From: Natronomonas sp.
GTDB taxonomy: Archaea; Halobacteriota; Halobacteria; Halobacteriales; Haloarculaceae
NCBI GenBank assembly: GCA_040409725.1
Contig: JARWGK010000105.1
Span: 1,808 to 65,807, forward strand
Length of the DNA: 64,000 nucleotides
Direction of reading: 5' to 3'
Position 1 is the first letter of the stretch; the number at the start of each line of letters is the position of its first letter. The notes under the pieces were generated by a model, which saw nothing but the letters and a program-made list of their open reading frames with translations, ran no database searches and was not told where the DNA came from. This document shows positions 32,129-56,074 of the stretch, piece after piece. The position numbers were made by a program, and so were the translations under genes.

Positions 32129-32131
32129 GGA

Positions 32132-37520: not shown

Positions 37521-38459
37521 TCACATCCGGTCGTCGTCGATCTGCTCCCGTAGCTCCTCGATCCGCCGCCGCTGTTCGCGGTTCATCGAGACGACGATAT
37601 CCGAAAGCACACCGAACATCAGCAACTGGACGGAAAGCAGGATCAAAAACGCCGCGAGCAGGGCACTGATCTCCCGCGACACCCCGTTGACGAAGAACTC
37701 GTAGCCGACGAACAGCCCGACGCCGACGCCCGCCACCAGTCCGAGGAGTGCAACGCTGCCGAAGTAGAAGATCGGATTGTTGGTTCGGGCGAGACGATAC
37801 AGCGTGAGTCCGATGCGAGCGCCGTCCTTCAGCGGACGGAGGTTGGTCTCGGATCCTCCCGGCCGGGATTCGTACCCGATTGGAACGACCGTGGTCGAAA
37901 TCCCGTTTCTGATGCACTCGACGGCCAGTTCCGTCTCGATTCCGAACCCCTCGGCGGTGAGGCGGGATCGTTCGAACGATTCCCGCGTGAACGCCCGGTA
38001 CCCGGAGAGTATATCGGTGTAGTTCGTCCCATGGATGATCCCGAAGGCGCGATTGATCAGGCGATTTCCGACCCGATTGAGTCGATCCATCGCCCCCGGT
38101 TCCATCTCCGCGAACCGGTTGCCGATGACGTGTTCGGATCGCCCCTCGAAAAGCGGTTCGAGCATCGCCTCCGCATCCGCCGGCCTGTACGTGCCGTCGC
38201 CGTCGGCCATCAGCACGTACTCCGCGTCGACGTGTTCGGCCACCGCCTCCCGAACCGCCTGTCCCTTCCCGCTTCCGGACTGTTCGACGACCCGCCCGCC
38301 GGCCTCGGCGGCGAGTTCCCGTGTCCCGTCGTCGGAGCCACCGTCTACGACGAGGATGTCGTCGAACCCTTCGTCTCGAAACCCGGATACGACATCGGCG
38401 ATCGCAGCCGCCTCGTTGTAGGTCGGCAGGAGCACACAGACGTCATCTCGGGTCGGCAT
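37521..38459 (-). CDS. aglJ: dolichol-phosphate glycosyltransferase AglJ (GT2)
   Basis: VCVLLPTYNEA, VDGGSDDGT, GKGQAV, DGDGTY, VIGNR, GFGIETE, NPIFYF plus two C-terminal TM helices; start at ATG 38459. Confidence 0.85.
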   Translation of the reverse strand: MPTRDDVCVLLPTYNEAAAIADVVSGFRDEGFDDILVVDGGSDDGTRELAAEAGGRVVEQSGSGKGQAVREAVAEHVDAEYVLMADGDGTYRPADAEAMLEPLFEGRSEHVIGNRFAEMEPGAMDRLNRVGNRLINRAFGIIHGTNYTDILSGYRAFTRESFERSRLTAEGFGIETELAVECIRNGISTTVVPIGYESRPGGSETNLRPLKDGARIGLTLYRLARTNNPIFYFGSVALLGLVAGVGVGLFVGYEFFVNGVSREISALLAAFLILLSVQLLMFGVLSDIVVSMNREQRRRIEELREQIDDDRM

Positions 38460-38586
38460 CACCGAAATGTCGACCCATCGACTGTTAAGTGTACGCTTTC
38501 CCGGGCGACCACTTTCGACCCGTCGGTGGTCCTTTGCCCCGATGTCTTCGAGCAGCTTTATGTCCGGCTGCCGGCAACCCCGAGAC

Positions 38587-39729
38587 ATGGCGACCGTCTT
38601 CCTCGGCCTCGCTTTGCTCGTCGTCGCCGGGATTCCCTACGGCCTGTATCTGACAGCAGGTCTGCTCCGGTCCGGGACCGATTCGCCGGCCGAAAAGACG
38701 CCGGCGATCGAACCGGTCAGCGTCGTCGTTCCGACCTACAACGAGGCAGCGATCGTCGAGGACACCCTTGAGGAACTCTGTTCGGTCGAGTATCCCGCAG
38801 AACACCTCGAAATCGTCGTCGTCGATTCGAGCGACGACGAAACCGCGGCGATCGTTCGCGACTTCTTCGCCGACAGGGCCGATCCGACGCTGACGCTGAT
38901 CGAGGAGGACGACCGGGGTGGCGTCGCCCGGGCGGTCAACCGGGCAGTCGAGGCGGCAACCCACGACATCATCTTCCGGACCGACTGTGACGCCCGCATC
39001 GGCGCCGAGACGATCCGCCACGCCGTCGCAAACCTACAGGACGACGCGATCGGTGGCGTGACGGGACGACAGACGACGGTCCTCGGCGGCAGCGAGGTCG
39101 AGGCGCAGTACCGGAGCCTCCAGACGAGAAACCAACTGCTCGAATCACACCTCGATTCGACCTTCATCGTCCACGGCCCCTGCTTTGCCTTCCGCCGGGA
39201 GTACTTCGAGGAACTGCCGACGGCCACGATCGCCGACGACACCGCCATCGCCGTCGCCATCCGACGACAGGGGAAACGCGTCGTGCTCGACCCTGCGATG
39301 GAGTTCACGGAGACGGGGACCTCCGACATCCGCGGTCGACGAACCCGAAAGGATCGGCGTGCGATGGGGCTTTTGCAGTTGCTCGATCGGAACCGCGATT
39401 TACTCGGCCGATACGGACGCTACGGGTCGATCGTCGTCCCGTTCAACTGGTGGTTTCTGTCGATCTCACCGTGGCTGTCGATCGGCGGCTGGTTTCTGAT
39501 CCTTTTCGGCATCTCGATCACGGTTCCACCGCTCGGCGTCGTTGCCGTGCTCGGAACCCTCGTCGGGGTGTACCTGGGCCAGCGTGATCGACTCGGCCGA
39601 CTGCAGGCTCCCTACGCCGTCTTCGATGCACACCTCTCGCTTCTCGTCGCGCGACTCCGACTGTGGCGGGAAGACCCCGACGGCAGCTGGTCGGTGGACG
39701 AAGAATCGAGGACGACGCTTGAGTCCTGA
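38587..39729 (+). CDS. GT2 membrane glycosyltransferase (cellulose synthase/PgaC-like)
   Basis: N-terminal TM helix, VSVVVPTYNE, RTDCD, IADD, RRTRK.RR, C-terminal TM helices; start at ATG 38587. Confidence 0.88.
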   Translation: MATVFLGLALLVVAGIPYGLYLTAGLLRSGTDSPAEKTPAIEPVSVVVPTYNEAAIVEDTLEELCSVEYPAEHLEIVVVDSSDDETAAIVRDFFADRADPTLTLIEEDDRGGVARAVNRAVEAATHDIIFRTDCDARIGAETIRHAVANLQDDAIGGVTGRQTTVLGGSEVEAQYRSLQTRNQLLESHLDSTFIVHGPCFAFRREYFEELPTATIADDTAIAVAIRRQGKRVVLDPAMEFTETGTSDIRGRRTRKDRRAMGLLQLLDRNRDLLGRYGRYGSIVVPFNWWFLSISPWLSIGGWFLILFGISITVPPLGVVAVLGTLVGVYLGQRDRLGRLQAPYAVFDAHLSLLVARLRLWREDPDGSWSVDEESRTTLES

Positions 39730-40760: not shown

Positions 40761-41741
40761 TCAATCCACGTATCCAAGCGCCCTGAGATTCTCTTCGATC
40801 GCTTCTTCGGGTACGTCCGTGGTTTCGACGGGCGGTTCGGACACCGTTTCTCTCCGCTCGCCGCCGTCGACTTCCAGCCAGGGCACGACCCGCAGCTCCG
40901 GCGTGTACACGTTTCCCGGATGGCCGTATCGCTTCGGGACGAACCAGCCGTCGGGGTCGCCGAGCAACTCGCCGTGGTCGGTCGACACGACGGATCTGCC
41001 GTCGAGTTCCTCGAGGAGCCGTTCGACCTCCTCGAGAACGATCTCCAGATTCTCGACGTACAGGTCGTACAGCACGTCGTCGGTGATGTACCCGTCCTCT
41101 GCGGCGTTTCGTAGCTGTGAGAACGACAGGTCGGGGTCGTCGGCGTCCGATCCGTGCATGACGTTCATCTTCTCAAACTCCATTCCGTGTTCGTCCCGCA
41201 GTTGGCCGCGAATTCGGTCGGCCTTCGGTCCGATGTACGGCGTGTGTGGCTGCATGAAGTGGACGACGAGCCGCTTGTCCGGATGTGCCTCGTGGGCCTC
41301 TGCCGCCACCTCACGGATGTGATCCGGCATCCATCCCCGATACCGACGCTCGTGACGATCGTACGTTTTCACGATCTTGAAGAAGACATCGTCGGCGATT
41401 CGTTCGGTGTTGCCGTTTCCGGTCACGTAGACCGTATCGTGTAACTCGCGGTCCGCGAAGTTCTTCCGCATGAACTCGTAGCTCGTAGAGCCCCGGGAGA
41501 CGACCGAGCGGAGGTCACCGGTGATGTCGTTTACCGCCTCGAAGGTGTCGTACCGACACGCGTCCAGAAGGAGCAGATTGTCCCAGTCCTCGGCCATCAC
41601 GTCGAGACCGGACCCATGTTTGTCGACGAAGGCTCTCCGCTGTGTCCGGGTGTGGAGCAGAAACTTCAGCTCCTCGGCGAAGAGCCCGGGGTTCCGCAGC
41701 GCGTTTTTCAGCCCTTCGACGGTGTACCGCTCCGGTAGCAT
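40761..41741 (-). CDS. sulfatase/alkaline-phosphatase superfamily protein
   Basis: LLLDACRYD, HFMQPHTPY, STDHGELLG, GHP...PWL; start at ATG 41741. Confidence 0.82.
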   Translation of the reverse strand: MLPERYTVEGLKNALRNPGLFAEELKFLLHTRTQRRAFVDKHGSGLDVMAEDWDNLLLLDACRYDTFEAVNDITGDLRSVVSRGSTSYEFMRKNFADRELHDTVYVTGNGNTERIADDVFFKIVKTYDRHERRYRGWMPDHIREVAAEAHEAHPDKRLVVHFMQPHTPYIGPKADRIRGQLRDEHGMEFEKMNVMHGSDADDPDLSFSQLRNAAEDGYITDDVLYDLYVENLEIVLEEVERLLEELDGRSVVSTDHGELLGDPDGWFVPKRYGHPGNVYTPELRVVPWLEVDGGERRETVSEPPVETTDVPEEAIEENLRALGYVD

Positions 41742-41884
41742 GCTGAGACGGTTGTAAGGCGGCACGGAAGAATATCGGGGGAACCGTGTGGCTGTGCCGA
41801 TCGAGGTGGCGTCGGATCGACGGCCGGGTGCCCGGGCCGTCGTCAAGAACTATACGCCGCCGGGGAAAACCACCGACTCAGTCG

Positions 41885-43033
41885 ATGGAAACCGTCTACG
41901 ATCTGGCCGTTTCGTTTGCCGATCGGGGACTCGGGGAGTTGCGGGCCGACGGGTCGATGCCGCCGGGATGCAACGGACCGTGGGACGACGCCGAGACGCC
42001 GGTCAGAAACACCGGCCACTGGCTGATCACGTTCCTCGAGGCTCACGAAATCACAGACGAGACCCGGTATCTGGATGCGGCGCGGGATGCGGCGGCGTAT
42101 CTCCTGTCCGAGGAGGCCCGCCCACACGGCGAGACGTTCCACCACCGACACGGCGGCGACCGGGACCGGTGCAACGGGCTGATCGGACAGGCGTGGTCGA
42201 TCGAGGCACTCGCCGTCGCCGCGGAGCGACTGGACGACACCCGGCTGTGTTCGGTCGCAGAGCGGACGTTCCTGCGTCACCCCTTCGATCGCCGTCTCGC
42301 CGCGTGGCGTCCCGTCGAGATAGACGGAACATCCCTCCCGCTCGATATGACCTTCAACCACCAGCTCTGGTTCGCAGCAGCCGGCGCGATTCTCGCAAAT
42401 CTGCCCGAGGTCGATCCTCGCGTCGGCCGCCGTGTCGAACGATTTCTGGACGAACTGGCGGCGAACGTCGACACCACCCCGGAGGGCCGGATCGAGCACA
42501 TCTTCAAACCCGAGTTCGATCTCTCGAAGTATCTGCGGATCTTCTACGACGGCCTTCGGGCCGGGACCGCCCACAAGATGGTCGCCGGACAGCTTCGGTC
42601 GATCCTCGGTCGGGACGGCGACGGAACCGGCGGAACGTTCGAAAAACAGGCCGTCGGCTACCACAGCTTCAACCTGTACGGGCTGGCCATCCTGTACGAC
42701 GAGTATCCGGATCACCGCTTCTGGGAGACCCGGACGTTTCGATCCACCCTCGAATACGCCGAAAGCGACACCTACGAGCGACGCCTCGCGGACAATCCGT
42801 ACGGCTACCCGTACAACTGTGCGGGGATCGAACTCGCGGTCGCCTTCGAACGCTTCGGCGTAGGAGACGACGAGACGCGACGGGCTTGGATCGGCCGCCA
42901 ACTTGAGGCCACGTACGACGACGAAACGGGCACCTTTTCACGCAACACGCCCGATCCGCGAACGTTGACCGCCCGCATATACGAAGCGACGAGGCTCTCG
43001 GATATCCGGCTGCCGGAGTCGATCCACCACTGA
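41885..43033 (+). CDS. aglQ: AglQ-like protein of N-glycosylation cluster
   Basis: DGSMPPGCNGPW.D.ETPVRNTGHW, CNGLIGQAWSIE, TFNHQLW, YHSFNLY resemble Haloferax AglQ as I recall it; cluster context; start at ATG 41885. Confidence 0.75.
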   Translation: METVYDLAVSFADRGLGELRADGSMPPGCNGPWDDAETPVRNTGHWLITFLEAHEITDETRYLDAARDAAAYLLSEEARPHGETFHHRHGGDRDRCNGLIGQAWSIEALAVAAERLDDTRLCSVAERTFLRHPFDRRLAAWRPVEIDGTSLPLDMTFNHQLWFAAAGAILANLPEVDPRVGRRVERFLDELAANVDTTPEGRIEHIFKPEFDLSKYLRIFYDGLRAGTAHKMVAGQLRSILGRDGDGTGGTFEKQAVGYHSFNLYGLAILYDEYPDHRFWETRTFRSTLEYAESDTYERRLADNPYGYPYNCAGIELAVAFERFGVGDDETRRAWIGRQLEATYDDETGTFSRNTPDPRTLTARIYEATRLSDIRLPESIHH

Positions 43034-43036
43034 GCT

Positions 43037-43843
43037 ATGACCGGGGGAGCCATCGCGGAGGGGCTGAAGATCCTCCGACACGATGGACCGCTGGAGGCAC
43101 TTCGGGCCGGACTCCGATTCTGCAACCTCAACTACCAGGGTTATTACTACTACCTCCGCCGCGAGTACCGAATCCGGAGGGATCGATCGATCGGGCGGAC
43201 GGACCCCTTCACCGTTCTGTGGGTCGATCCGCGGCGGATCACCGCCGTTCCAGAAACGCTCTGGTACCGCTGGACGCACTTCGGCGAGACACGCGACGGC
43301 GAGTGGGATCGGACCGACCGCACCGTCGACGATCTGATCAAATACCGAAGCGTCGTCGATCGATTCGAGAACGACCGACCGTGGGAGGAGACGGCGGTGT
43401 ATCGGGAGGCGATGAAGCGCGTCAGGAGCGGGGGGACGTACTGGAACGGCTGTCGAACCGCAGCGGACGTTCGACGGCGGGCAGAGCACGTCGAGGAACT
43501 GTACGAACGAATCGACGAACACGGGTACAGGTCACAGGAACAGCTACGCGGCGAGTCGCTCCGAGAGATCACGCTGAGTCGAACGTTCGATCGATCACAG
43601 GAGGAGGTCGCGGTTGCAGTCGGCCGTAACGGTGAGTTCCTGTTCGTCGACGGCAACCACCGCCTTGCGATCGCACACGTCATCGGCATCGAAGAGATTC
43701 CCGTCCACGTCGTGACCCGACACGCAGAGTGGGAGTCGATTCGACGCCGGATCGATGCCGGTAGCGCACCACGGGCCGAAGTCGATGCCTACGGCGACCA
43801 CCCGGACATCCCCACCTCGATTTTCGACTCGGACGTTCCGTAA
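43037..43843 (+). CDS. ParB/sulfiredoxin-like domain protein (copy 1)
   Basis: VAVAVGRNGEFLFVDGNHRLAIA...IPVHVVTRH. Confidence 0.75.
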   Translation: MTGGAIAEGLKILRHDGPLEALRAGLRFCNLNYQGYYYYLRREYRIRRDRSIGRTDPFTVLWVDPRRITAVPETLWYRWTHFGETRDGEWDRTDRTVDDLIKYRSVVDRFENDRPWEETAVYREAMKRVRSGGTYWNGCRTAADVRRRAEHVEELYERIDEHGYRSQEQLRGESLREITLSRTFDRSQEEVAVAVGRNGEFLFVDGNHRLAIAHVIGIEEIPVHVVTRHAEWESIRRRIDAGSAPRAEVDAYGDHPDIPTSIFDSDVP

Positions 43844-43875
43844 CATATTGTTGTCCGACCCGCCATCCTCCGGTC

Positions 43876-44631
43876 GTGTTGGGTCACATCCGTCGCGGCG
43901 TCTCGACGCTCCTGTCGTACCCCCGGTCGCTCGCCTCGAGCTACCGCGACGGTGGCGTCTCGGAGGTGGCGACCGATATTCGGGAACACCTCTGGTGGCG
44001 GTGGTACCGACTCCGGATGCACCCGCAGTTCAGGCCGATCTATACGCGCTTCAACCGCGTCGGACACCGGCTCCTGCCCGCTCACTTCACCGACGCGGAC
44101 CCGTTCGAGACGATTCACGTCGACCCGGCGAACGTCGAGAGCGTGGCCGTCGGGCTTCCGTCCGTCTGGGGCCGGGTCATCGGCGGCGACTGGGAGCGAC
44201 GACCGTTCGACGACGAGGCCGCCTATCGGGCGGCGAAGGAGCGGTTTCTGGACGGAACGCCGTGGACCGAGATCGATCGGACGGTCGCGGATCCGGAGGT
44301 CTACGAACGGCTGTACGAATCGATCGAGAGACACGGGTATCGATCACAGGCCGAACTGTCCGAGACGGCGGGTCTCTCCGGGAGACGGGACTGTGAGATC
44401 GGCGTGGCCATCGACCGCGACGGGTCGATCCTCTGGGTCAAACGCGGCTTCCATCGGCTCACGATCGCAAAGCTCCTCGAAATCGAGTCGATCCCGGTGC
44501 AGGTCAGGGTCAGACACCCAGCCTGGCAGGCGATCCGAGACGAGGTTCGCGCCGCCGACACCCACCGCCTGCTTTCGTCCCCGGCGATCAGACACCTCGA
44601 CCATCCGGATCTGGAGGACCTCACGGAATAA
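43876..44631 (+). CDS. ParB/sulfiredoxin-like domain protein (copy 2)
   Basis: IGVAIDRDGSILWVKRGFHRLTIA...IPVQVRVRH; DPF...VDP and GDW shared with copy 1. Confidence 0.72.
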   Translation: MLGHIRRGVSTLLSYPRSLASSYRDGGVSEVATDIREHLWWRWYRLRMHPQFRPIYTRFNRVGHRLLPAHFTDADPFETIHVDPANVESVAVGLPSVWGRVIGGDWERRPFDDEAAYRAAKERFLDGTPWTEIDRTVADPEVYERLYESIERHGYRSQAELSETAGLSGRRDCEIGVAIDRDGSILWVKRGFHRLTIAKLLEIESIPVQVRVRHPAWQAIRDEVRAADTHRLLSSPAIRHLDHPDLEDLTE

Positions 44632-45986: not shown

Positions 45987-47432
45987 ATGCGTCTCGGCCA
46001 GACCTCAGTCGTCTATCTCGTCTCGAAGATCGTCGCCTCCGGACTGGGGTTTCTCGCGACGATCTACTTCACGAGGCTGCTCGGCGAGGAGGTGTACGGG
46101 GCGTACGCACTGACGCTCGCCGTCGTCTCCTGGCTCGGCATCGTCAAGAGCGTCGGCTTCGGGACGGCGGTCGTCAAACGGATGAGCGAAGCCGAGGAAC
46201 CGGACGCCTATCTCGCCGCCGGGACGGCGATCAAGACGGGTCTGGTCTTCGCCGTCGTCGTCGGCGTACTGGTCTTCGAGGATGCCCTGAACTCGTACGT
46301 CGGTCGTCCCGTCGCCGGATTCGTCGTCGTTTTGCTCGTCGTTTCGATCTTCGGCGACCTCGTGAGTGCCGCACTCAAGGGGAGCCATCGGGTCCACATC
46401 TACGCGCCGCTGAGCACCTTCCGGCAGGGCGCCCGGAGTCTGTGTATGGTCGCCCTCGTCTTTCTCGGCTGGGGGCTCACCGGGATGTTGGCCGGATACG
46501 CCGTCGGGACCGCGGTGGCTGCGGCCATCGGACTCCTGATCGTCCGGCCGACGATCGTGGTTCCGCGATGGCGACACGTCGCCGGACTGTTCGATTTCGC
46601 GAAGTTTGCCTGGATCGGCAATCTGCGAAAGCGGACGTTCAGCGACGCAGACATCCTCGTTTTGGGACTGTTCGTCCCGGTCGGACTGACCGGCGTCTAC
46701 GCCGTGGCCTACGCCCTTTCGGAGTTTCTCGATCTCTTCGGGCGGGCGATCAGGGAGACGCTGTTCCCGGAGATGAGTCGGTTCTCGGCACAGGACGACA
46801 CCGAAGCCGTCGCAGCGCTCACGGACGATGCACTGGCGTTTGCGGGGCTGTTTTTGATACCCGGTGTCGTCGGTGGCGCACTCCTCGGCGATCGGCTGAT
46901 GGCGGTGTACGGACCGGGATTTGCGATCGGCGATCGGGTGCTCGGGATTCTCCTCTTCGGACTGCTCGTCTACAGCTACACGAAACAGCTTCTCAACACC
47001 CTCAACGCGGTCGATCGCCCGGATCTCAGCTTTCGGGCCAACGGTCTCTTCGTGTCGAGTAACGTCGTTCTCAACGTCGTCCTCGTCGTCTCGATCGGCT
47101 GGATCGGGGCCGCAATCGCAACTGCGATTTCGGCCGTCGTCGGGCTGGTGGCTTCGCTGTACTACGCCCGACGCCTGCTCCCGGTCGAGGTGCCGTACGG
47201 AGAGATCGGCCGACAGTGGGGGGCGGCCCTCGGGATGGGCGCGGTCGTCTACGCGGCGCGCGTGGCCGTCGAGACGACCGTTCCGTGGATCGACTCCTAC
47301 AATGCGGCCTTCGTTCTCTGTCTCGTCGGACTCGGAGCGGCCGTCTACTTCCTCCTTCTTTCGTTGCTTTCGGAGCGATTCCGGTCGACGGTTCTGGCGA
47401 ACCTTCCGTTCGATCCACCGACCCGTCTCTGA
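45987..47432 (+). CDS. MOP-superfamily oligosaccharide flippase (Wzx/AglR-like)
   Basis: About 12-14 TM segments, TRLLGEEVYG, TLFPEMS, IGWIGAAIAT. Confidence 0.88.
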   Translation: MRLGQTSVVYLVSKIVASGLGFLATIYFTRLLGEEVYGAYALTLAVVSWLGIVKSVGFGTAVVKRMSEAEEPDAYLAAGTAIKTGLVFAVVVGVLVFEDALNSYVGRPVAGFVVVLLVVSIFGDLVSAALKGSHRVHIYAPLSTFRQGARSLCMVALVFLGWGLTGMLAGYAVGTAVAAAIGLLIVRPTIVVPRWRHVAGLFDFAKFAWIGNLRKRTFSDADILVLGLFVPVGLTGVYAVAYALSEFLDLFGRAIRETLFPEMSRFSAQDDTEAVAALTDDALAFAGLFLIPGVVGGALLGDRLMAVYGPGFAIGDRVLGILLFGLLVYSYTKQLLNTLNAVDRPDLSFRANGLFVSSNVVLNVVLVVSIGWIGAAIATAISAVVGLVASLYYARRLLPVEVPYGEIGRQWGAALGMGAVVYAARVAVETTVPWIDSYNAAFVLCLVGLGAAVYFLLLSLLSERFRSTVLANLPFDPPTRL

Positions 47433-47523: not shown

Positions 47524-50301
47524 ATGAGTGTGAGCGATCGACTGGAGGTGGTCAGGGAAGCCGTAGCGGAGTTCGAAGAACCCCTGAACCGCCTCTACGA
47601 ACTGTATCATATCCCGGTTCTCGCCGGTCTTATGGCGTTTATGCTCTGGGTTCGAACCAGACACTACGAGCGCTTCATGGCCGAGGACGGTACGATGACG
47701 TTCATCGGAAACGACGCGTGGTACCACTACCGGACGACCGGCTACGTGCTGGAGAACTATCCGTTCAACCAGCCCTTCGACCCCTGGACGTCGTTCGACA
47801 CCGGTCAACACGTCGGCCAGTTCGGTACCATCTTCGATCAGATGATCGCAACGGTGATACTGGTCGTCGGCCTCGGAAGCCCTGCTCAGTCGACGATCGA
47901 TCAGGTGTTTTTCTTCGCCCCGGCGATCTTCGGTGTGCTCTGTATCGTTCCGGTTTATCTCATCGGCAAGCGCCTCGGCGGTCGCTTCGGTGGGATCATC
48001 GCGGCGACGATCCTCGCCGTGACGCCCGGAATCTTTCTCTCACGGAGCATGGCCGGATTCGTCGACCACCACGTCACCGAGGTGCTGTTTCAGGCGACGG
48101 CGCTGTTTGCGGTGATGGTCATGATTGCCGTCGCCAGGGAGGATCGACCGATCTACGAACTCATCGAGGCGCGGGAGTTCGACGCACTCCGTCGCCCCGT
48201 TCTCTGGGGTGTCATTTCGGGCGTGGCGATCACGCTTCACATGCTCAACTGGCAGCCGGCCGTCTTCTTCGTCGGTCTCATCGGCATCTTCCTGCTCGTC
48301 TATCTCACGCTGGAGTACCTTCGCGGATACAGCCCGGATCACGTCGCCATTCCGACGGTCGTCGCGATGGCAATTCCGACTGTGGTCATGCTGTTGTATC
48401 TACAGGAGCTGAGCTTCGGGGCGACCGACTACTCCCTGACGCAGGTGTTCGTCCCCTTCGCCGTCGGAGCGACGGCCGTCTTTATGGCCGGGTTGGCCCG
48501 TGTCTGGAACGCCCGTGAGCTGTCGAAGCGGTCCTACGCCGGAGTCATCGCGGCTCTCACAGTCGCCCTCCCGGCGATCGCGGCTCTTGCTCTCCCGGAC
48601 GTGTTCGGCTTCTTCATCGACAACCTCCGGCAGGTCGCCGGATTCGGGGCGACCGACACGGCCCGAACTATCGGCGAGGCACAGGCACCGAGAGATCCGA
48701 TCGCGTTCTTCTACAACTCCTACGGACTCGCCTTTTATACCGGCATGGCGGGACTGGCGCTGCTCGCCTTCCGTGGTCTCACCGCCAAACGGCCGAGAGG
48801 CGAATACCTGCTCGTCGTCATCTTCAGTCTGTTCACGCTCTCGGCGACGCTCACCCAGCAGCGCTTCGACTACTACCTCGTCATCGCCATCGGCGCGTTG
48901 AACGCCTATCTCGTCGGCGCGGTGTACAACTTCGTCGACCTGCAGGCCGTCAGACAGAACGTGTTGAACGTCAAGCCGTATCAGTTCCTCATCGTCATCG
49001 CCATCCTCTTCGTGATCGTCGGGCCGGTCATTCTCACCGGCGGTCCTGTCGCTGCCGCCGATCAGGCGGCAAACCCAGGCGAGTACCAGCAGTGGGAGGA
49101 CAGCCTCGAGTGGCTCTCGGAGGACACACCCGAGGTCGGTGCCTACGGGACCGGTGACGACCCGCGGCTGGAGTACAACGGCGCGTACCCTGTCACAGAC
49201 GACTTCGACTATCAGGAGGGCGAATACGGCGTCCTCGCGTGGTGGGATTACGGCCACTGGATCACCGTGACCGGCGAGCGGATCCCGGTTGCGAACCCGT
49301 TCCAGCGACACGCAGAGGAGTCCGCCGACTTCCTGCTCGCCGACGACGAGGAAGAGTCACTCGAAATCCTCGAAGAAGACAGCGGCGACGGCTCCGGCGT
49401 CCAGTACGTGATGGTCGACCGCGAACTCGGCTACGCCGGCACCCAGAAGTACACCGCGCCGACGGCGTGGGAGGCCCGACACGATGTCGAAAGCGGAGAC
49501 CTCGGCGTGACCGTTCGGGACCCACAGACGGCACAGCCGATCTACGGCATCCACTCACAGCGGTCCTACGAGAGCATGCGCGTCCGGCTGTACCAACACC
49601 ACGGCAGTGCGGTCGATCCCGCACCGTTCGTCGCACGCTTCGGCGTCGAGGATCAGTTCGGATTCGCCGTTCCACCAGAGGGACAGCTGATCGAGGAGTT
49701 CGACACCGTCGAGGAGGCCCGTGAGGCCGCCGAGGACGATCCGAACGCGATCCACGGTGGACTCCTCGGATTCCCCGGCGAACGCGTCGAGGCCCTCGAG
49801 CAGTTCCGTCTCGTCCACGGCAGCGAGACGACGGGGCCGTCGCCGTTCAACCTCGCAACCGGCCAGGCGGACGAACAGGAGTCGTGGGTCAAGACCTTCG
49901 AGCGCGTCGAGGGTGCGACAATCGAGGGTGAAAACGCCGTGCCCGAAAACGAGGTCCGGGCGGTAGTCGAAATGGAGATCGGCGCGACGGGTGAGACCTT
50001 CGAGTACGTCCAGTACGCACAGGCCGACGAGGACGGCAACTTCGAACTCCGGGTGCCGTACTCGACGACCGGCTACGACGAGTTCGGAACCGAGGCCGGC
50101 TACACCGACGTCGACGTCCGCGCGACCGGCGACTACCGGATCGAAGGCGGCTTCGACATCGACGAGGAGGCGGGCCCGATCGAACTCACGGCGGAGGTCG
50201 AGGTGAGCGAAGCGAAGGTGCTCGGTGAGGACGAGGAGTCGATCGAAGTCGACATGGAGGAGTTCGCCGAACCGCTGCAACAGCCCGAACAAGAGGAATG
50301 A
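47524..50301 (+). CDS. aglB: oligosaccharyltransferase AglB (STT3 family)
   Basis: GNDAWYH, DHHVTE, about 13 TM segments, WWDYGHWI, ANPFQ. Confidence 0.96.
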   Translation: MSVSDRLEVVREAVAEFEEPLNRLYELYHIPVLAGLMAFMLWVRTRHYERFMAEDGTMTFIGNDAWYHYRTTGYVLENYPFNQPFDPWTSFDTGQHVGQFGTIFDQMIATVILVVGLGSPAQSTIDQVFFFAPAIFGVLCIVPVYLIGKRLGGRFGGIIAATILAVTPGIFLSRSMAGFVDHHVTEVLFQATALFAVMVMIAVAREDRPIYELIEAREFDALRRPVLWGVISGVAITLHMLNWQPAVFFVGLIGIFLLVYLTLEYLRGYSPDHVAIPTVVAMAIPTVVMLLYLQELSFGATDYSLTQVFVPFAVGATAVFMAGLARVWNARELSKRSYAGVIAALTVALPAIAALALPDVFGFFIDNLRQVAGFGATDTARTIGEAQAPRDPIAFFYNSYGLAFYTGMAGLALLAFRGLTAKRPRGEYLLVVIFSLFTLSATLTQQRFDYYLVIAIGALNAYLVGAVYNFVDLQAVRQNVLNVKPYQFLIVIAILFVIVGPVILTGGPVAAADQAANPGEYQQWEDSLEWLSEDTPEVGAYGTGDDPRLEYNGAYPVTDDFDYQEGEYGVLAWWDYGHWITVTGERIPVANPFQRHAEESADFLLADDEEESLEILEEDSGDGSGVQYVMVDRELGYAGTQKYTAPTAWEARHDVESGDLGVTVRDPQTAQPIYGIHSQRSYESMRVRLYQHHGSAVDPAPFVARFGVEDQFGFAVPPEGQLIEEFDTVEEAREAAEDDPNAIHGGLLGFPGERVEALEQFRLVHGSETTGPSPFNLATGQADEQESWVKTFERVEGATIEGENAVPENEVRAVVEMEIGATGETFEYVQYAQADEDGNFELRVPYSTTGYDEFGTEAGYTDVDVRATGDYRIEGGFDIDEEAGPIELTAEVEVSEAKVLGEDEESIEVDMEEFAEPLQQPEQEE

Positions 50302-50341
50302 CCGCCCGTTCGTCCGGTCACACCGCGGCAGTCGACGAGGC

Positions 50342-51286
50342 GTGAGCCCCACCGACGCGACCGGAATCCGCGGCTGGGTCGTCGTCTTCCTGAAAGGCGC
50401 GTGTATGGGAATCGCCGACGCCGTCCCCGGCGTTTCCGGCGGTACGATCGCACTCATCGTCGGGATCTACGATCGACTGATAACGGCACTCACCGCCGTC
50501 GATCCGCGAATCCTCTTCGATGTCGGGAAGATCCGAACGACCAACGGGCGGCGCGTGCTTGCCGAGGAGCTCGTCGCGATGGATCTTCCATTTTTGTTGC
50601 TACTGGGCGTCGGGATCGTCTCGGCTGCTGGGACAGTCGCCACCACGGCGAACGTCGCCGTCACGACCGCTCCGGTTCCGACCTACGCCTTCTTTTTCGG
50701 CCTCATCGCCGCCTCCGGATTCGTGTTGTCCCGGTCCGTCGTCGTCGGGACGGTTCGGCGCCTCGCCGTCGGCGTCGTCGGCTTCGGAACGGCGTTTTTC
50801 GTCACCGGATTCACCGCCTCCGGCGGCGGGGCCCAACCCACGTCGGCGGTGTTGTTTCTCGTCGGCGCGGTCGTCATCTCGGCGATGGTGCTTCCGGGAA
50901 TCTCGGGTGCCTTCCTGCTCCTGTTGTTCGGCCAATACGAGTTTATCAGTGGCCTTCCACGAGCCGTCGTTTCGGGCGCCCTCACCGGGGATCCATCGGC
51001 GCTTGAACCGGCACTCGGCCCGCTTTTTGCCTTCCTCGCCGGCGCCGTCGTCGGGCTGTTTTCGTTTGCGTATCTCGTTCGATCGGCGCTGAGACGACAC
51101 CGGGACGCGACGCTCGTTTTCCTCCTCAGTCTCATGATCGGCTCACTCCGGCTTCCGGTGGAACGCGTCGCCGCCGACGCCGGTGGCCTCTCGCCGTCGA
51201 CCGCTGCGCTCGTCGCAATTCCGGCGTTTCTCGGGTGTGCGGTCGTCCTCCTCCTCGATTCCTACACGGACGAACTCGTGTACTGA
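50342..51286 (+). CDS. DUF368 membrane protein (PopT-like polyprenyl-phosphate transporter family)
   Basis: KGACMGIADAVPGVSGGTIA, FFFGLIAAS, AMVLPGISGAFLLLLFGQY; GTG start at 50342. Confidence 0.85.
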   Translation: MSPTDATGIRGWVVVFLKGACMGIADAVPGVSGGTIALIVGIYDRLITALTAVDPRILFDVGKIRTTNGRRVLAEELVAMDLPFLLLLGVGIVSAAGTVATTANVAVTTAPVPTYAFFFGLIAASGFVLSRSVVVGTVRRLAVGVVGFGTAFFVTGFTASGGGAQPTSAVLFLVGAVVISAMVLPGISGAFLLLLFGQYEFISGLPRAVVSGALTGDPSALEPALGPLFAFLAGAVVGLFSFAYLVRSALRRHRDATLVFLLSLMIGSLRLPVERVAADAGGLSPSTAALVAIPAFLGCAVVLLLDSYTDELVY

Positions 51287-51355
51287 TCGCTTTCGGGACG
51301 GCTACCTCGTCGGTCACCGACATCGTTTATAAGCTCCCTCGGTTACCCTTCGGCT

Positions 51356-51931
51356 GTGTTCCGCCGTCCGACACCCGTCACCCTCGGAGCGATCTGTCTG
51401 ACCTACCTGCTACAGACAGCCGCTGGATTTCTGGGACTCGGAACCGAGCTGTTTGCACTCGCCCTCCCGCTTTTGGATCGTCCTTGGACGCTGGTTCTCA
51501 GCGTCTACGCACACAGTTCACTCCTGCATCTCGCGACGAATGCGATCGCACTCCTCGTCGTCGGACCGATCGTCGCACACCTCTCGACGCCGGTGCGGTT
51601 CCACGCCTTCTTCGTGACCTCGGGTTCTCTTGCCGGGGCGATACAGGTGCTTCTCACCGCACCACTCGGACCGACGGCGGTACTCGGTGCCAGCGGGGCG
51701 ATCTTCGGGTTGTTCGGCTACCTCCTGATCGGCAACCGGGCGACGGACGCCGCCCTGTCGTGGGTACCCTTTGGCCGCCGCGGCCGGTTGCTCGTCGTCG
51801 TCGGACTTGGCGCCGCGTTGACGCTCGCCACGGCCGCCCCGGGGGTCGCACTCGTGGCACACTTCGCCGGATTCCTCATCGGTGGCGTCGCCGGTCGAAT
51901 CCGGCTGCTGCACGCTCCGTCGCGTCGGTGA
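51356..51931 (+). CDS. rhomboid-family intramembrane serine protease
   Basis: PWTLVLSVYAH...LHLATN, GASGAIF, AHFAG; TTTATAA at 51326. Confidence 0.9.
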   Translation: MFRRPTPVTLGAICLTYLLQTAAGFLGLGTELFALALPLLDRPWTLVLSVYAHSSLLHLATNAIALLVVGPIVAHLSTPVRFHAFFVTSGSLAGAIQVLLTAPLGPTAVLGASGAIFGLFGYLLIGNRATDAALSWVPFGRRGRLLVVVGLGAALTLATAAPGVALVAHFAGFLIGGVAGRIRLLHAPSRR

Positions 51932-51986
51932 CGCGGTCCACGCGCGGATCACAACACACACAAGCGACGGCGTTGCAGGGTAGTCC

Positions 51987-52676
51987 GTGTACGACGGCGT
52001 CTACGCGTATCCGGACGGCAGAGCAACCGTCGCCCGACACGCAGCGACCGCTGCAGACTACGGGTTCGACGGGATCGTCGTCCGGAATCACGGCGACGAG
52101 GCGGCCGACTACGACGCCGAAGCGATCGCCGACGCCTACGGAATCGACGTCGTCGAGGGCATCGAGATCAGGTGTGACGATCCAAGCCGGGCACGGGGAT
52201 TGATCGGTAACTACCGCAGCAAGCGAACGATCGTCTGTGTCCACGGCGGCGAACTGAACCGATTTGCGGTCGAGCAACCGCAGGTGGACGTGCTCTCACA
52301 CCCGATGGACGGCGGCGACATCAACCACGTCCTCGCGAAGGCGGCCACGGAACACAGCGTCCACCTCGAATTCGACCTCTCCTCGGTGTTGCGCGAGGAG
52401 GGTGGGTCCCGCGTCCAGACGATCGCCGACCTTCGAAAGCTTCGTGAGATCGTCGACGCATACGACACGCCCTACGTGGTGACCGCTGGCGCACGCTCTC
52501 ACCTCGAACTGCGGGCACCGCGGGAACTGATCGCCGTCGGGGAAGCAATCGGGTTCGATCCGGAGACGATCGAGGCCGGCCTCCGCGCCTGGAAGTCGAT
52601 AGCCGAGCGGAACCGGCACCGTGGTTCGGATGCCGTCCCCGAACCCGGCGTCGAGATCGAGAGGGAGGAACGATGA
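51987..52676 (+). CDS. rnp3: ribonuclease P protein component 3 (Rpp30)
   Basis: GFDGIVVRNH, VCVHGG..NRFAVE..VDVLSHP, SHLELRAPR. Confidence 0.9.
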   Translation: MYDGVYAYPDGRATVARHAATAADYGFDGIVVRNHGDEAADYDAEAIADAYGIDVVEGIEIRCDDPSRARGLIGNYRSKRTIVCVHGGELNRFAVEQPQVDVLSHPMDGGDINHVLAKAATEHSVHLEFDLSSVLREEGGSRVQTIADLRKLREIVDAYDTPYVVTAGARSHLELRAPRELIAVGEAIGFDPETIEAGLRAWKSIAERNRHRGSDAVPEPGVEIEREER

Positions 52677-52704
52677 AGCCGCTGCCGAACGGCGGGAGGC
52701 GTGT

Positions 52705-53190
52705 ATGAAACACCTGCCGAAGTATCTCCGACCGCGCTGGCGGTATCTGGCCGTCGAGATCGAGACCTGGCCGGAGGCAGAGATCACGCGGCGGTCGTTT
52801 CAGCGTGCGGTGTGGTACGCCGCGGGGAATTTGCTCGGCGACGCCGGCAGTGCGGCCATCGACGGGACCGTTCTCGGATTCGAACACGCCGAAGGGATCA
52901 CGACGGCGATCGTCCGCGCACATCGCGGCCAAGAGGACCGACTGCGGGCCGCGATTGCGACGATCGACGAGATCGACGGCGAGGAGGTCGGCGTCGTAAT
53001 CCGGGGTGTAAGCGGGACAGTCCGGGCCTGTGAGGAAAAGTATATACGGCGTCCACGGGAACGTTTAGACGAGAGAAACGTCGCGTTCGACGCCGCCAAC
53101 CGGCCCGCAATGGGACGGAACGACCGCTACGATGTGCGTCTTTCCGGTGGGTACGTTGGCGCGACCGCACTCGATATCCGCGACAACTGA
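52705..53190 (+). CDS. rnp2: ribonuclease P protein component 2 (Pop5/Rpp14)
   Basis: MKHLPKYLRPRWRYL, LLGD, GVSGTVRAC. Confidence 0.9.
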   Translation: MKHLPKYLRPRWRYLAVEIETWPEAEITRRSFQRAVWYAAGNLLGDAGSAAIDGTVLGFEHAEGITTAIVRAHRGQEDRLRAAIATIDEIDGEEVGVVIRGVSGTVRACEEKYIRRPRERLDERNVAFDAANRPAMGRNDRYDVRLSGGYVGATALDIRDN

Positions 53191-53192
53191 AT

Positions 53193-53939
53193 ATGCAAGG
53201 ACAATCACAGCAGCAGGCCTACGACCGGGGTATCACGATCTTTTCCCCGGACGGACGGCTGTACCAGGTCGAGTACGCGCGTGAGGCGGTCAAACGAGGC
53301 ACAGCATCCATCGGCGTTCGAACGGCCGACGGGGTCGTCTTCGCCGTCGACAAACGAATCCGCTCCCCGCTCATGGAGCGGACGTCGGTCGAGAAGATCC
53401 ACAAGGCCGACGATCACATCGGCATCGCAAGCGCCGGCCACGTGGCCGACGCCCGACAGCTGATCGACTTCGCCCGCCGGGAAGCGCAGGTGAACGAACT
53501 CCGGTACGGCGAACCGATCGGCGTCGAGACGCTGACGAAGTCGGTCACCGACCACATCCAGCAGTACACGCAGGTCGGCGGCGCTCGCCCGTTCGGCGTT
53601 GCCCTCATCATCGGGGGCATCGAGGACGGCGAACCCCGTCTCTACGAGACGGACCCCTCGGGAACGCCCTACGAGTGGCAGGCGCTGGCCGTCGGTGCCG
53701 ACCGCGGCGAAATCGAAGACTACCTCGAGGAACACTACAACCCAGAGATGGATTTGGCCGGCGGCATCGGCCTCGCCCTGGAGGCGCTCGCGTCGGTCAA
53801 CGACGACGAACTGTCCCCCGAAGGCATCGGCCTCGCGACGATCGACGTCGACGATCAGATGTTCACCGAACTCTCCGATTCGGAGACCGAGTCCTACCTC
53901 GCAGAACACGGACTCCTCGCCGAGGACGACGAGGAGTAA
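53193..53939 (+). CDS. psmA: proteasome alpha subunit
   Basis: YDRGITIFSPDGRLYQVEYA alpha signature. Confidence 0.97.
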   Translation: MQGQSQQQAYDRGITIFSPDGRLYQVEYAREAVKRGTASIGVRTADGVVFAVDKRIRSPLMERTSVEKIHKADDHIGIASAGHVADARQLIDFARREAQVNELRYGEPIGVETLTKSVTDHIQQYTQVGGARPFGVALIIGGIEDGEPRLYETDPSGTPYEWQALAVGADRGEIEDYLEEHYNPEMDLAGGIGLALEALASVNDDELSPEGIGLATIDVDDQMFTELSDSETESYLAEHGLLAEDDEE

Positions 53940-53993
53940 CGCCCCGTCGCCGAGGCACGACACTTTTTGCCACCCCCGTCCGTACCCGGTGGT

Positions 53994-54719
53994 ATGATAT
54001 CACTCGAAGATGCCGTAACCGCCCGCCTCGAATCACACGGCCAGCGATTCGAGGTGCTCGTCGACCCCGACGCCGCCTTGGCGATCAAACGCGGCGAGTT
54101 CGACGGCGACCTCGAGGACGTGATCGCTGCCGAGGACGTTTTCGAAGACGCCTCACGCGGCGATCGTCCGCCCGAGGACGCACTCGAGGAGGTTTTCGAG
54201 ACGACGGATCCGCTGGCGATCATTCCGGAGGTGATCAAACGCGGTGAGATCCAGATCACCGCCGAACAGCGCCGCGAGATGAAACAACAGAAGCACAACC
54301 AACTCGTGACGAAGATCACCCGCAACGCGGTCAACCCCCAGATGGACGACGCGCCACATCCACCGGATCGGATCGAACGCGCACTCGAGGAGGCAGGGTT
54401 CAGCGTCGATCCGATGGAGCCGGTCGACAGCCAGATCGACGACGCCCTCGATGCCCTTCGTCCCGTCATCCCCATCCGCTTCGACGAGGTCGTGATGGCG
54501 GTGCAGTTCCCCGCGGAGTACGCCGGCAGCGCACAGGCACAGGTCCGGGAGTTCGGCGACCTCGAAAGCGAGGAGTGGCAGTCCGACGGCTCTTGGGTCG
54601 GCGTCCTGCGGTTCCCGGCCGGCCTCCAGAACGACTTCTACGACCTCGTCAACGAACACTCCTCCGGAGAGGCCGAAACGCGGGTCGTCAAGGACGAAGA
54701 CGAGATCGGGACGCGGTGA
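53994..54719 (+). CDS. ribosome maturation factor SBDS/Sdo1
   Basis: AVTARLESHGQRFEVLVDP, EIQITAEQR, PHPP.RIE; start at ATG 53994. Confidence 0.93.
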   Translation: MISLEDAVTARLESHGQRFEVLVDPDAALAIKRGEFDGDLEDVIAAEDVFEDASRGDRPPEDALEEVFETTDPLAIIPEVIKRGEIQITAEQRREMKQQKHNQLVTKITRNAVNPQMDDAPHPPDRIERALEEAGFSVDPMEPVDSQIDDALDALRPVIPIRFDEVVMAVQFPAEYAGSAQAQVREFGDLESEEWQSDGSWVGVLRFPAGLQNDFYDLVNEHSSGEAETRVVKDEDEIGTR

Positions 54720-54769
54720 CTCCTTGGCTACCTGAGGGTTAAATATCGTCGTCGCATACCCTCGGGCGA

Positions 54770-56074
54770 GTGACGGATACGAACGGACCGGTGGTCGTGG
54801 CAAAGCGGGTCGATTCGGGGAGTGCCGACACCGAGGAGATCCGCGAACTAGCGGCCGCCGCCGGCTACACCGTCGTGGGCGAGGTGACACAGACCCGGAC
54901 CGAGGATCCAGCGCTGTGTCTGGGGGAAGGAAAGGTCGAGGAGTTGGCTGCACTCGTCGTCGAAACCGGGGCGACCACGGTCATCTTCGACAACCGCCTC
55001 GGACCGTATCAGACGTTCAACCTCGGCAACAAGCTTCCCGAAGACGTCGAGGTGATGGATCGATTCCGCCTCATCCTCGAGATATTCGGCCAGCGCGCAC
55101 AGACGAAGAAGGCCCAATTACAGGTCGAGTTGGCCGAGTTGCGCTATGAGTTGCCACGCGCCGAAACGAAGGCCTCCCTCGCCAAGCGCGACGAGCGCCC
55201 CGGATTCATGGGACTCGGAGAGTACGACGAGTCACGCGAGCGGGACATCAAGGCCCGCATCAGCCGGATCCGGGACGAACTCGAGGCGATCGAACAGACC
55301 GAAGCACACCGGAGACAACAGCGCCGGGAGTCGGGCTTCGATCTGGTCGCACTGGCTGGCTACACGAACGCCGGCAAATCGACGCTGCTCCGCCAACTCG
55401 CAACCGACGTCGAGGTCGACGAAAACGAGGGACTCCACCCCGATCTGGATGCGACCGCGGAATCCGAAGATCGGCTCTTCACCACGCTCGGAACGACGAC
55501 GCGTCGCGCGGAGATGGACCGCCGGGACGTTCTCGTGACCGACACCGTCGGATTCGTCTCGAATCTCCCCCACTGGCTCGTCGAATCGTTCAAATCGACG
55601 CTGTCGGAGGTGTATCGCGCCGACCTGGTGTTGCTCGTCGTCGACGTCTCCGATCCGATCGAGGAGATTCGCGAGAAACTCGTGACGTGTCACGACACCC
55701 TCTATGAGCGCAACGAGGCACCGATCGTCACCGTGTTGAACAAGATCGATCTGGTCGACGACGAGGAGTTGGCCGAAACGCAGGCGGCACTCTCCGGCCT
55801 CGCGCCGAACCCGGTCGCCGTCAGTGCCACGGAGGGGATCGGGATCGACGAACTCCGGAGTCGGATCGACGACGAACTCCCGGACTGGCGGCGGGAGCGT
55901 CTCGTCCTGCCGATGACCGACGACGCGATGAGCGTCGTCTCCTGGATCCACGACCACGGTCACGTGGAGGACGTCGACTACGGCGAGGAGGTTATCGTCG
56001 ACTTCGAGGCCCGGCCGGCGATCGTCGAACAGGCTCGATCGAAGGCCGGCGAACTGTCGATGCCGGAAGCCTGA
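54770..56074 (+). CDS. hflX: GTPase HflX
   Basis: LQVELAELRY, GYTNAGKST, LFTTL, DTVGF, NKID. Confidence 0.95.
   Translation: MTDTNGPVVVAKRVDSGSADTEEIRELAAAAGYTVVGEVTQTRTEDPALCLGEGKVEELAALVVETGATTVIFDNRLGPYQTFNLGNKLPEDVEVMDRFRLILEIFGQRAQTKKAQLQVELAELRYELPRAETKASLAKRDERPGFMGLGEYDESRERDIKARISRIRDELEAIEQTEAHRRQQRRESGFDLVALAGYTNAGKSTLLRQLATDVEVDENEGLHPDLDATAESEDRLFTTLGTTTRRAEMDRRDVLVTDTVGFVSNLPHWLVESFKSTLSEVYRADLVLLVVDVSDPIEEIREKLVTCHDTLYERNEAPIVTVLNKIDLVDDEELAETQAALSGLAPNPVAVSATEGIGIDELRSRIDDELPDWRRERLVLPMTDDAMSVVSWIHDHGHVEDVDYGEEVIVDFEARPAIVEQARSKAGELSMPEA

What the first reader, a model, noticed from the sequence alone, without database searches (positions are those of the whole stretch)
47524..51286. 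DUF368 (PopT-like) gene 40 bp after aglB: candidate archaeal dolichol-phosphate recycling translocase
Seen: a DUF368 gene (MG.AD.VPGVSGGT and M.LPGISG repeats) follows aglB co-directionally. Established: bacterial DUF368 proteins (PopT, Vibrio VCA0040) translocate undecaprenyl phosphate back across the membrane, and AglB leaves the spent Dol-P carrier on the outer face. Inference: this gene supplies the carrier-recycling step of archaeal N-glycosylation, for which I know of no experimentally assigned protein. The linkage may already have been noted bioinformatically.
Basis: partly seen in the sequence, partly recalled or inferred. Interest (0 to 1): 0.7.

Follow-up and report, generated by a model that had tools for sequence, protein, structure and literature searches.

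The report
Known aglB–DUF368 (PopT) gene pair
In this salt-lake haloarchaeon the gene for the protein-glycosylating enzyme AglB is followed 40 bases later by a DUF368/PopT-type membrane transporter gene that probably returns the spent dolichol-phosphate lipid carrier to the inside of the cell, but both the pairing and this idea were published in 2022-23, so this is an ordinary new example.

Summary
aglB lies at 47524-50301 (925 aa; TIGR04154 839 bits; WWDYG at residues 573-577). After a 40-nt gap comes a co-directional DUF368 gene at 50342-51286 (314 aa; PF04018 186 bits). It carries both signature motifs, MGIADAVPGVSGGT and MVLPGISG.

The pair closes an N-glycosylation cluster that runs from aglJ through glycosyltransferases and an AglR-like flippase to aglB and DUF368.

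I surveyed 89 DUF368 loci from 74 genera of class Halobacteria. aglB lies upstream and co-directional in 60 loci (54 genera). In 33 of these the estimated gap is -4 to +11 nt. Of the 29 unlinked copies, 23 form one separate clade. In Methanomicrobia none of the DUF368 genes whose distance to STT3 could be measured is adjacent to it.

The interpretation (recycling of dolichol phosphate after AglB) is reasonable, but it is not new. Roney & Rudner (bioRxiv 10.1101/2022.02.03.479048) reported the duf368-aglB synteny and proposed exactly this. Sit et al. (PMC9876793) showed that the Haloferax volcanii homologue partly complements a Vibrio cholerae vca0040 mutant.

I found no direct test in an archaeon. 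Four DedA paralogues in this genome, and haloarchaea that have AglB but no DUF368, argue for redundancy.

Verdict: real, already known, low interest.

The parts
37521..38588 (-). aglJ: dolichyl-phosphate hexosyltransferase, the first step of the cluster. Longest ORF given; the true start is probably further downstream.
   Evidence: NCBIfam TIGR04182 (S-layer glycoprotein N-glycosyltransferase AglJ) 424.8 bits, cut-off 325; Pfam GT2
38467..39729 (+). GT2 glycosyltransferase (start uncertain)
   Evidence: Pfam PF00535 86.7 bits
39735..40685 (-). GT2 glycosyltransferase
   Evidence: Pfam PF00535 114.4 bits
44635..45930 (+). GT61-family glycosyltransferase
   Evidence: Pfam PF04577 75 bits
45987..47432 (+). 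MOP/Wzx-type flippase (AglR-like): candidate for the outward flip of the Dol-P-linked sugar or glycan
   Evidence: Pfam Polysacc_synt 74.6 bits, Polysacc_synt_3, MurJ; NCBIfam MOP flippase hits below cut-off
47524..50301 (+). aglB: archaeal oligosaccharyltransferase, 925 aa, WWDYG at nt 49240-49254
   Evidence: TIGR04154 839.5 bits; Pfam STT3, AglB_core-like, AglB_L1; motif. It is the only STT3 gene in the assembly.
50302..50341 (+). 40-nt GC-rich spacer between aglB and DUF368, with no TATA-like element. GAGG sits just before the GTG.
   Evidence: Read directly from the sequence. The scan looks only for bacterial sigma-70-type sites and found none, so it does not bear on an archaeal promoter.
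50342..51286 (+). DUF368/PopT-family membrane protein, 314 aa: candidate dolichol-phosphate translocase
   Evidence: PF04018 186 bits; start supported by homologue alignment A1; the only copy in the assembly; falls in the aglB-linked clade of the tree
50405..50446 (+). Signature motif 1, MGIADAVPGVSGGT (residues 22-35)
   Evidence: D26, P29, G30, S32, G33 and T35 conserved in 100% of 95 homologues, V31 in 99%; helix break at residues 28-32 in the AF2 model
50885..50908 (+). Signature motif 2, MVLPGISG (residues 182-189), the second-half counterpart of motif 1
   Evidence: P185, G186, S188 and G189 conserved in 99%; helix break at residues 184-188 in the AF2 model
51356..51931 (+). Rhomboid-family intramembrane protease gene with its own TATA-like box (TTTATAA, 51326-51332). 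A neighbour, probably a separate transcript.
   Evidence: Pfam PF01694 70.4 bits; sequence

Best explanation
The DUF368 gene encodes a polyprenyl-phosphate translocase of the PopT/VCA0040 family. It most likely works as the last step of the N-glycosylation lipid cycle. Haloarchaea build the glycan on dolichol monophosphate (established knowledge from H. volcanii). Here AglJ and the other glycosyltransferases of this cluster would build it on the cytoplasmic face. The AglR-like MOP flippase moves the loaded carrier outward. AglB transfers the glycan to Asn of surface proteins and leaves Dol-P on the outer leaflet. The DUF368 protein then returns the phosphate head group to the cytoplasmic face, probably through the cavity formed by its two PGxSG-containing broken helices while the lipid tail stays in the bilayer. 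Its position directly after aglB, with no recognisable promoter between them, suggests co-transcription so that carrier return keeps pace with carrier consumption. What is shown here: family membership, motif conservation and conserved gene order. What is shown by others: UndP translocation by bacterial homologues, and heterologous complementation by the H. volcanii homologue. What is inferred: Dol-P as the substrate, the direction of transport, co-transcription, and any physiological requirement.
For: The gene belongs to PF04018 (186 bits), and the family's invariant residues are kept. The AF2 model (pLDDT 71.7) places helix breaks at both PGxSG motifs, which fits the re-entrant, two-fold inverted architecture described for PopT. 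aglB lies upstream and co-directional in 60 of 89 Halobacteria loci, covering 54 of 74 genera. In 33 of those 60 the estimated gap is -4 to +11 nt, typical of translationally coupled operon genes. The pair sits at the end of a full agl cluster that also holds aglJ and an outward-flippase candidate. This genome has a single AglB and a single DUF368. Two haloarchaeal draft genomes lack both genes together. From the literature: bacterial DUF368 proteins move UndP inward, and the same synteny was reported. H. volcanii HVO_RS12060 partly rescues V. cholerae delta-vca0040.
Against: No experiment in any archaeon was found. The protein scores far below the NCBIfam equivalog cut-offs for the two characterised bacterial transporters (165.6 and 77.5 bits against 400), so equivalence of substrate is not established. 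The genome holds four DedA-family genes, the other known polyprenyl-phosphate translocase family. Genus g17 haloarchaea have AglB but no DUF368. M. jannaschii, S. acidocaldarius and M. acetivorans have STT3 and DedA but no DUF368 (controls). DUF368 therefore cannot be the universal or sole archaeal recycler. Twenty haloarchaeal genera carry only an unlinked copy. No RNA data exist for this organism, so co-transcription is unverified.
Confidence: 0.7

Rival explanations
1. DUF368 is a conditional or back-up Dol-P translocase, for example at high Na+ or alkaline pH. Under most conditions the DedA-family paralogues, or spontaneous flipping, do the bulk of carrier recycling. This is a rival about importance, not about chemistry.
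For: There are four PF09335 (DedA) genes in this genome. DedA is present in all four archaeal control genomes, whereas DUF368 is present only in H. volcanii. Genus g17 keeps AglB without DUF368. In V. cholerae VCA0040 matters only at alkaline pH and is sodium-sensitive, and the family is enriched in halophiles. The B. subtilis and S. aureus double mutants are viable.
Against: DUF368 is nearly universal in Halobacteria (247 of 251 genomes). Tight, often overlapping coupling to aglB in most genera argues for a constitutive role tied to AglB.
Confidence: 0.15
2. DUF368 moves the loaded carrier (Dol-P-oligosaccharide) outward. It would then be the lipid-linked-oligosaccharide flippase that feeds AglB, not the recycler.
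For: As far as I know, the flippase for the main Dol-P-linked oligosaccharide is not firmly assigned in haloarchaea. Gene order next to aglB would fit a supplier as well as a recycler.
Against: The cluster already has an AglR-like MOP/Wzx flippase directly upstream of aglB. Bacterial homologues act on free UndP: deletion raises surface-exposed UndP and over-expression protects against MX2401. The small 314-aa protein has a phosphate-sized motif pair and no large cavity is predicted (moderate-confidence model).
Confidence: 0.07
3. The protein transports something unrelated to dolichol, and its position after aglB is retained only by operon inertia.
For: Scores fall below the equivalog cut-offs. 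A whole clade of haloarchaeal DUF368 genes sits among housekeeping genes such as thermosome and MutS-like genes, away from any agl cluster. There is no adjacency in Methanomicrobia.
Against: Conservation of the pair across at least 54 genera, with overlapping stop and start codons, is hard to explain without a functional link. All family-invariant residues are kept. The H. volcanii homologue works in a bacterial UndP-dependent phenotype.
Confidence: 0.05

Closest known systems
Archaeal duf368 (popT)-aglB synteny described by Roney & Rudner, 'Two broadly conserved families of polyprenyl-phosphate transporters' (bioRxiv 10.1101/2022.02.03.479048; to my knowledge published in Nature 2023), including the H. 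volcanii agl cluster (their Fig. S13)
   Same: The same gene family sits next to aglB inside an N-glycosylation cluster, and the proposed role is the same: recycling the DolP that AglB liberates.
   Different: Nothing in kind; this is another instance. My sample adds detail. In Halobacteria the linkage is much more frequent than their archaea-wide 37% (60 of 89 loci) and is often translationally coupled. The unlinked copies mostly form one separate clade.
Haloferax volcanii DUF368 protein HVO_RS12060 (Sit et al., Nature 2022, PMC9876793)
   Same: A haloarchaeal DUF368 homologue. It is the only archaeal member with functional data: partial complementation of V. cholerae delta-vca0040 alkaline growth.
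   Different: It comes from a different family of Halobacteria. I did not align its sequence, so identity to the window protein is unmeasured (other families in my sample are about 42-52% identical). It was tested only heterologously, on a bacterial UndP phenotype.
Staphylococcus aureus PopT (SAOUHSC_00846) and Vibrio cholerae VCA0040
   Same: Same Pfam family PF04018, twin PGxSG-type motifs, about 300 aa, polytopic with predicted inverted repeat.
   Different: They are bacterial, carry undecaprenyl phosphate and serve peptidoglycan and teichoic-acid synthesis. The window protein reaches only 77.5 and 165.6 bits against their NCBIfam equivalog models (cut-off 400).
DedA-family UptA / YghB polyprenyl-phosphate translocases (PF09335)
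   Same: The same proposed biochemical step: return of the polyprenyl phosphate to the cytoplasmic face.
   Different: An unrelated fold and family. Four paralogues sit elsewhere in this genome, none in the agl cluster.

Membership tests
DUF368 / VCA0040-like / PopT family (Pfam PF04018) | Score above the Pfam gathering threshold over most of the model | tested here: met
   186 bits against 26; model positions 1-226 of 246; residues 22-270
DUF368 / VCA0040-like / PopT family (Pfam PF04018) | Twin signature motifs (D..PGVSGGT in the first half, LPGxSG in the second) with family-invariant residues | tested here: met
   D26, P29, G30, S32, G33 and T35 conserved in 100%, V31 in 99%, and P185, G186, S188 and G189 in 99% of 95 sequences from Halobacteria, Methanomicrobia and one bacterium
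DUF368 / VCA0040-like / PopT family (Pfam PF04018) | Polytopic transporter-like fold with two-fold inverted symmetry and re-entrant or broken helices | tested here: inconclusive
   The AF2 model from 8 sequences has pLDDT 71.7 and pTM 0.65. It is all-helical with breaks at both motifs. Symmetry was not measured. There is no solved homologue by sequence or fold (best Foldseek E 0.27).
PopT equivalog (NCBIfam NF052563) and V. cholerae-type equivalog (NF052564) | Score above the curated equivalog cut-off (400 bits) | tested here: not met
   77.5 and 165.6 bits. It is a family member but not an equivalog of either characterised bacterial protein.
Polyprenyl-phosphate translocase (functional class) | Catalyses transbilayer movement of polyprenyl phosphate (here Dol-P) | not testable with these tools
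   Only literature on homologues is available.
aglB-duf368 linked pair (Roney & Rudner synteny class) | duf368 adjacent to and co-directional with aglB inside an N-glycosylation cluster, conserved in relatives | tested here: met
   40-nt gap. The cluster holds aglJ, three further glycosyltransferase genes (two GT2, one GT61) and a MOP flippase. The pair is linked in 60 of 89 Halobacteria loci and in all four other genomes of the same genus.
AglB / archaeal STT3 oligosaccharyltransferase | STT3 membrane domain plus AglB core with the WWDYG motif; NCBIfam subfamily cut-off | tested here: met
   TIGR04154 839.5 bits against 450; PF02516, PF22627, PF18079; WWDYG at residues 573-577

The most novel reading that the evidence does not exclude
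AglB and the DUF368 protein may work as a physical, roughly 1:1 complex, so that Dol-P released at the AglB active site passes straight to the translocase (carrier channelling). The hint is that about half of the linked haloarchaeal pairs have overlapping or nearly abutting stop and start codons, and that the aglB-linked copies are phylogenetically distinct from a free-standing clade. This has not been proposed in the papers I read. Nothing here tests it directly.
Probability: 0.15. Interest if true: 0.5.

Novelty: already known. Interest (0 to 1): 0.15.

Why it matters
How the lipid carrier gets back across the membrane after glycan transfer is one of the last unassigned steps of N-glycosylation in archaea, and of the corresponding lipid cycle in eukaryotes. 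The aglB-DUF368 pair is the best genetic lead for archaea. That lead has been public since 2022, and this window adds only one more example from an uncultured salt-lake haloarchaeon. In Halobacteria the pairing is the rule (54 of 74 genera) and is often translationally coupled. A distinct unlinked clade exists, and a few lineages keep AglB without DUF368. These points help choose strains and paralogues for the deletion experiments that are still missing.

Tried and rejected
1. AglB-DUF368 fusion proteins. Long open frames around DUF368 hits (1066 aa in G159; 536 and 537 aa in G136 and G069) looked like possible fusions. In G159, aglB and DUF368 lie in different frames. In G136 the extension is Arg-rich with GC3 0.54 against 0.93 for the gene. 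Both are high-GC artefacts, so there is no fusion.

2. Solved structures. phmmer against PDB sequences found nothing at E <= 1. Foldseek of the AF2 model against the PDB gave no match better than E 0.27 and TM < 0.3. This was not informative.

3. Transcript evidence. Only one DNA metagenome run holds this sequence and there is no RNA run. Co-transcription remains an inference from the sequence.

4. The search for related loci with the single protein returned only 9 loci, so I switched to the genome search plus fetch from genomes.

5. My first synteny sample came from the 150 best-scoring hits. It gave an inflated figure of 50 of 56 loci linked. A second sample of the low-scoring genera corrected this to 60 of 89 loci and 54 of 74 genera.

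6. Conserved neighbours of the unlinked clade. They turned out to be thermosome, MutS-like, GT2 and amidohydrolase-like genes, named by my reading of the translated sequences without a family search. They are not a second glycosylation cluster, and many apparent ORF clusters were antisense artefacts.

7. Adjacency outside Halobacteria. In Methanomicrobia, DUF368 is present in 29 of 51 genomes. Among the genomes where both genes share a contig, STT3 is never adjacent; it lies 12-15 kb away in four genomes and far away in the rest.
Full report
**What is there.** The window is GC-rich (about 63%) and its proteins are acidic. It comes from a 2.3-Mb, 135-contig assembly. The only public run holding this sequence is a salt-lake metagenome. 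The closest DUF368 relative is in a Haloarculaceae MAG at 60% identity.

The ORF 47524-50301 (+) encodes a 925-aa AglB. It matches Pfam STT3, AglB_core-like and AglB_L1. It scores 839.5 bits against NCBIfam TIGR04154, cut-off 450. The WWDYG motif is at residues 573-577.

The next ORF on the same strand matches Pfam PF04018, now titled 'undecaprenyl phosphate translocase-like', at 186 bits. Alignment with seven homologues places its start at GTG 50342. That gives 314 aa and a gap of exactly 40 nt after the aglB stop.

Their core residues are conserved in 99-100% of 95 aligned homologues from Halobacteria, Methanomicrobia and one bacterium.

**Context in the window.** The pair closes an N-glycosylation cluster:
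- aglJ at 37521-38588 (-), TIGR04182 424.8 bits
- two GT2 genes
- four ORFs with no family match
- a GT61 gene
- an AglR-like MOP flippase at 45987-47432
- aglB, then DUF368

Downstream lies a rhomboid protease gene. Beyond it is a conserved housekeeping block: RNase P p30, Pop5, proteasome alpha, SBDS and HflX.

The 40-nt spacer between aglB and DUF368 is GC-rich and has no TATA-like element. A canonical TTTATAA sits 24-30 nt before the rhomboid start. From the sequence alone this suggests that DUF368 is transcribed with aglB and that the rhomboid gene has its own promoter. No RNA data exist to check this. The assembly holds one STT3 gene, one DUF368 gene and four DedA-family genes.

**How general is the pairing?** DUF368 occurs in 247 of 251 sampled genomes of the class, and in 74 of 75 genera. 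I fetched ±8 kb around 89 DUF368 genes from 74 genera and searched them with the window's AglB.

aglB lies upstream on the same strand in 60 loci (54 genera):

| Estimated gap, aglB stop to DUF368 start | Loci |
|---|---|
| -4 to +11 nt | 33 |
| 27 to 171 nt | 23 |
| 1.5 to 2.3 kb insertion | 3 |
| ambiguous | 1 |

These starts were estimated automatically, so the gaps are approximate. The first sample was biased to high-scoring hits and gave 50 of 56 linked. The second sample corrected this.

A maximum-likelihood tree puts 23 of the 29 unlinked genes in one clade (SH-aLRT 97). That clade is confined to two families. Two genomes (G008, G219) carry both a linked and an unlinked copy, so this clade is a relocated or paralogous lineage. 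By my reading of their translated sequences, its neighbours are housekeeping genes (thermosome, MutS-like).

The window's gene falls in a fully supported group of eight aglB-linked sequences (the window plus seven relatives). Four of these relatives are the other genomes of the same genus.

Outside the class, 29 of 51 Methanomicrobia genomes have DUF368. Where both genes share a contig, none is adjacent to STT3.

**What it most likely does.** The literature I read establishes three points. First, bacterial DUF368 proteins (S. aureus PopT, V. cholerae VCA0040) return undecaprenyl phosphate to the cytoplasmic face. Second, the H. volcanii homologue HVO_RS12060 partly complements V. cholerae delta-vca0040. 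[quoted passage not shown] They proposed that the PopT homologue recycles the DolP liberated by AglB.

Haloarchaea use dolichol monophosphate carriers (established knowledge). AglB therefore leaves Dol-P directly on the outer leaflet, and no pyrophosphatase step is needed. A translocase encoded right after aglB fits as the closing step of the cycle. The AglR-like flippase immediately upstream of aglB already covers the outward step.

A moderate-confidence AF2 model (pLDDT 71.7) shows helix breaks exactly at the two PGxSG motifs. This fits the re-entrant architecture described for PopT. I put 0.7 on this explanation.

**Caveats.**
- The protein is well below the NCBIfam equivalog cut-offs for both characterised bacterial proteins.
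- Four DedA paralogues could do the same job.
- Genus g17 haloarchaea keep AglB without DUF368.
- Three model archaea with STT3 and DedA lack DUF368 (controls).
- Twenty haloarchaeal genera have only an unlinked copy.

DUF368 is therefore not the universal archaeal recycler and may be conditional or redundant. Two draft genomes lack both aglB and DUF368. This fits physical linkage, but it could also reflect one unassembled locus.

**Novelty.** Both the linkage and the hypothesis are published. I found no paper reporting a direct test in an archaeon. A 2024 review of archaeal N-glycosylation does not mention recycling or flippases at all. Earlier agents of this scan reached the same verdict on other haloarchaeal windows. 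Those notes repeat my reading and are not independent evidence.

The finding is real and correctly interpreted, but it is already known. The modest additions are the class-wide frequency, the frequent stop/start overlap, the separate unlinked clade, and the lineages that have AglB without DUF368.

Noticed in passing
window 51356-51931 (+), TATA-like box 51326-51332: A short (191-aa) rhomboid protease gene directly follows DUF368 and has its own TTTATAA box. tblastn finds it in the same position in three of the four other genomes of the same genus and in two related MAGs (L007, L010, L106, L107, L114), but not in G044 or elsewhere in the class. [quoted passage not shown] 2014, as cited in PMC11985538). 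A rhomboid next to aglB-DUF368 may therefore be more than coincidence.
   Followed up: partly
window 40761-44631: Four GC3-supported ORFs inside the agl cluster have no Pfam or NCBIfam match: 40761-41846 (-), 41786-43033 (+), 43037-43843 (+) and 43876-44631 (+). They may be novel glycan-modifying enzymes.
   Followed up: partly
loci L064, L069, L115, L117-L121, L123-L137 (other Halobacteria): A distinct clade of DUF368 genes (SH-aLRT 97) in two haloarchaeal families is never next to aglB and sits among housekeeping genes. Some genomes (G008, G219) have both types. The function of this second lineage, and which copy serves AglB where only the unlinked one exists, is open.
   Followed up: partly
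genomes G003, G026 (genus g17); G211, G227 (genus g15): Genus g17 (genomes of about 2 Mb) has two STT3 genes but no DUF368. Two g15 draft genomes lack both STT3 and DUF368.
   Followed up: partly
window 31319-32929 (+): A DacZ-type diadenylate cyclase gene (PF19294 + PF02457) is directly followed by an MscS-like mechanosensitive channel gene. This looks like a c-di-AMP/osmoregulation pair.
   Followed up: no
window 47524-56074 compared with L060, L106, L107, L114: Within the same genus, AglB (53-58%) and DUF368 (55-59%) are much less conserved than the housekeeping genes a few kb downstream (against G044/L060: PsmA 87%, SBDS 85%, HflX 82%). This fits the agl island, with DUF368 included, being a fast-evolving or exchanged unit.
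   Followed up: no
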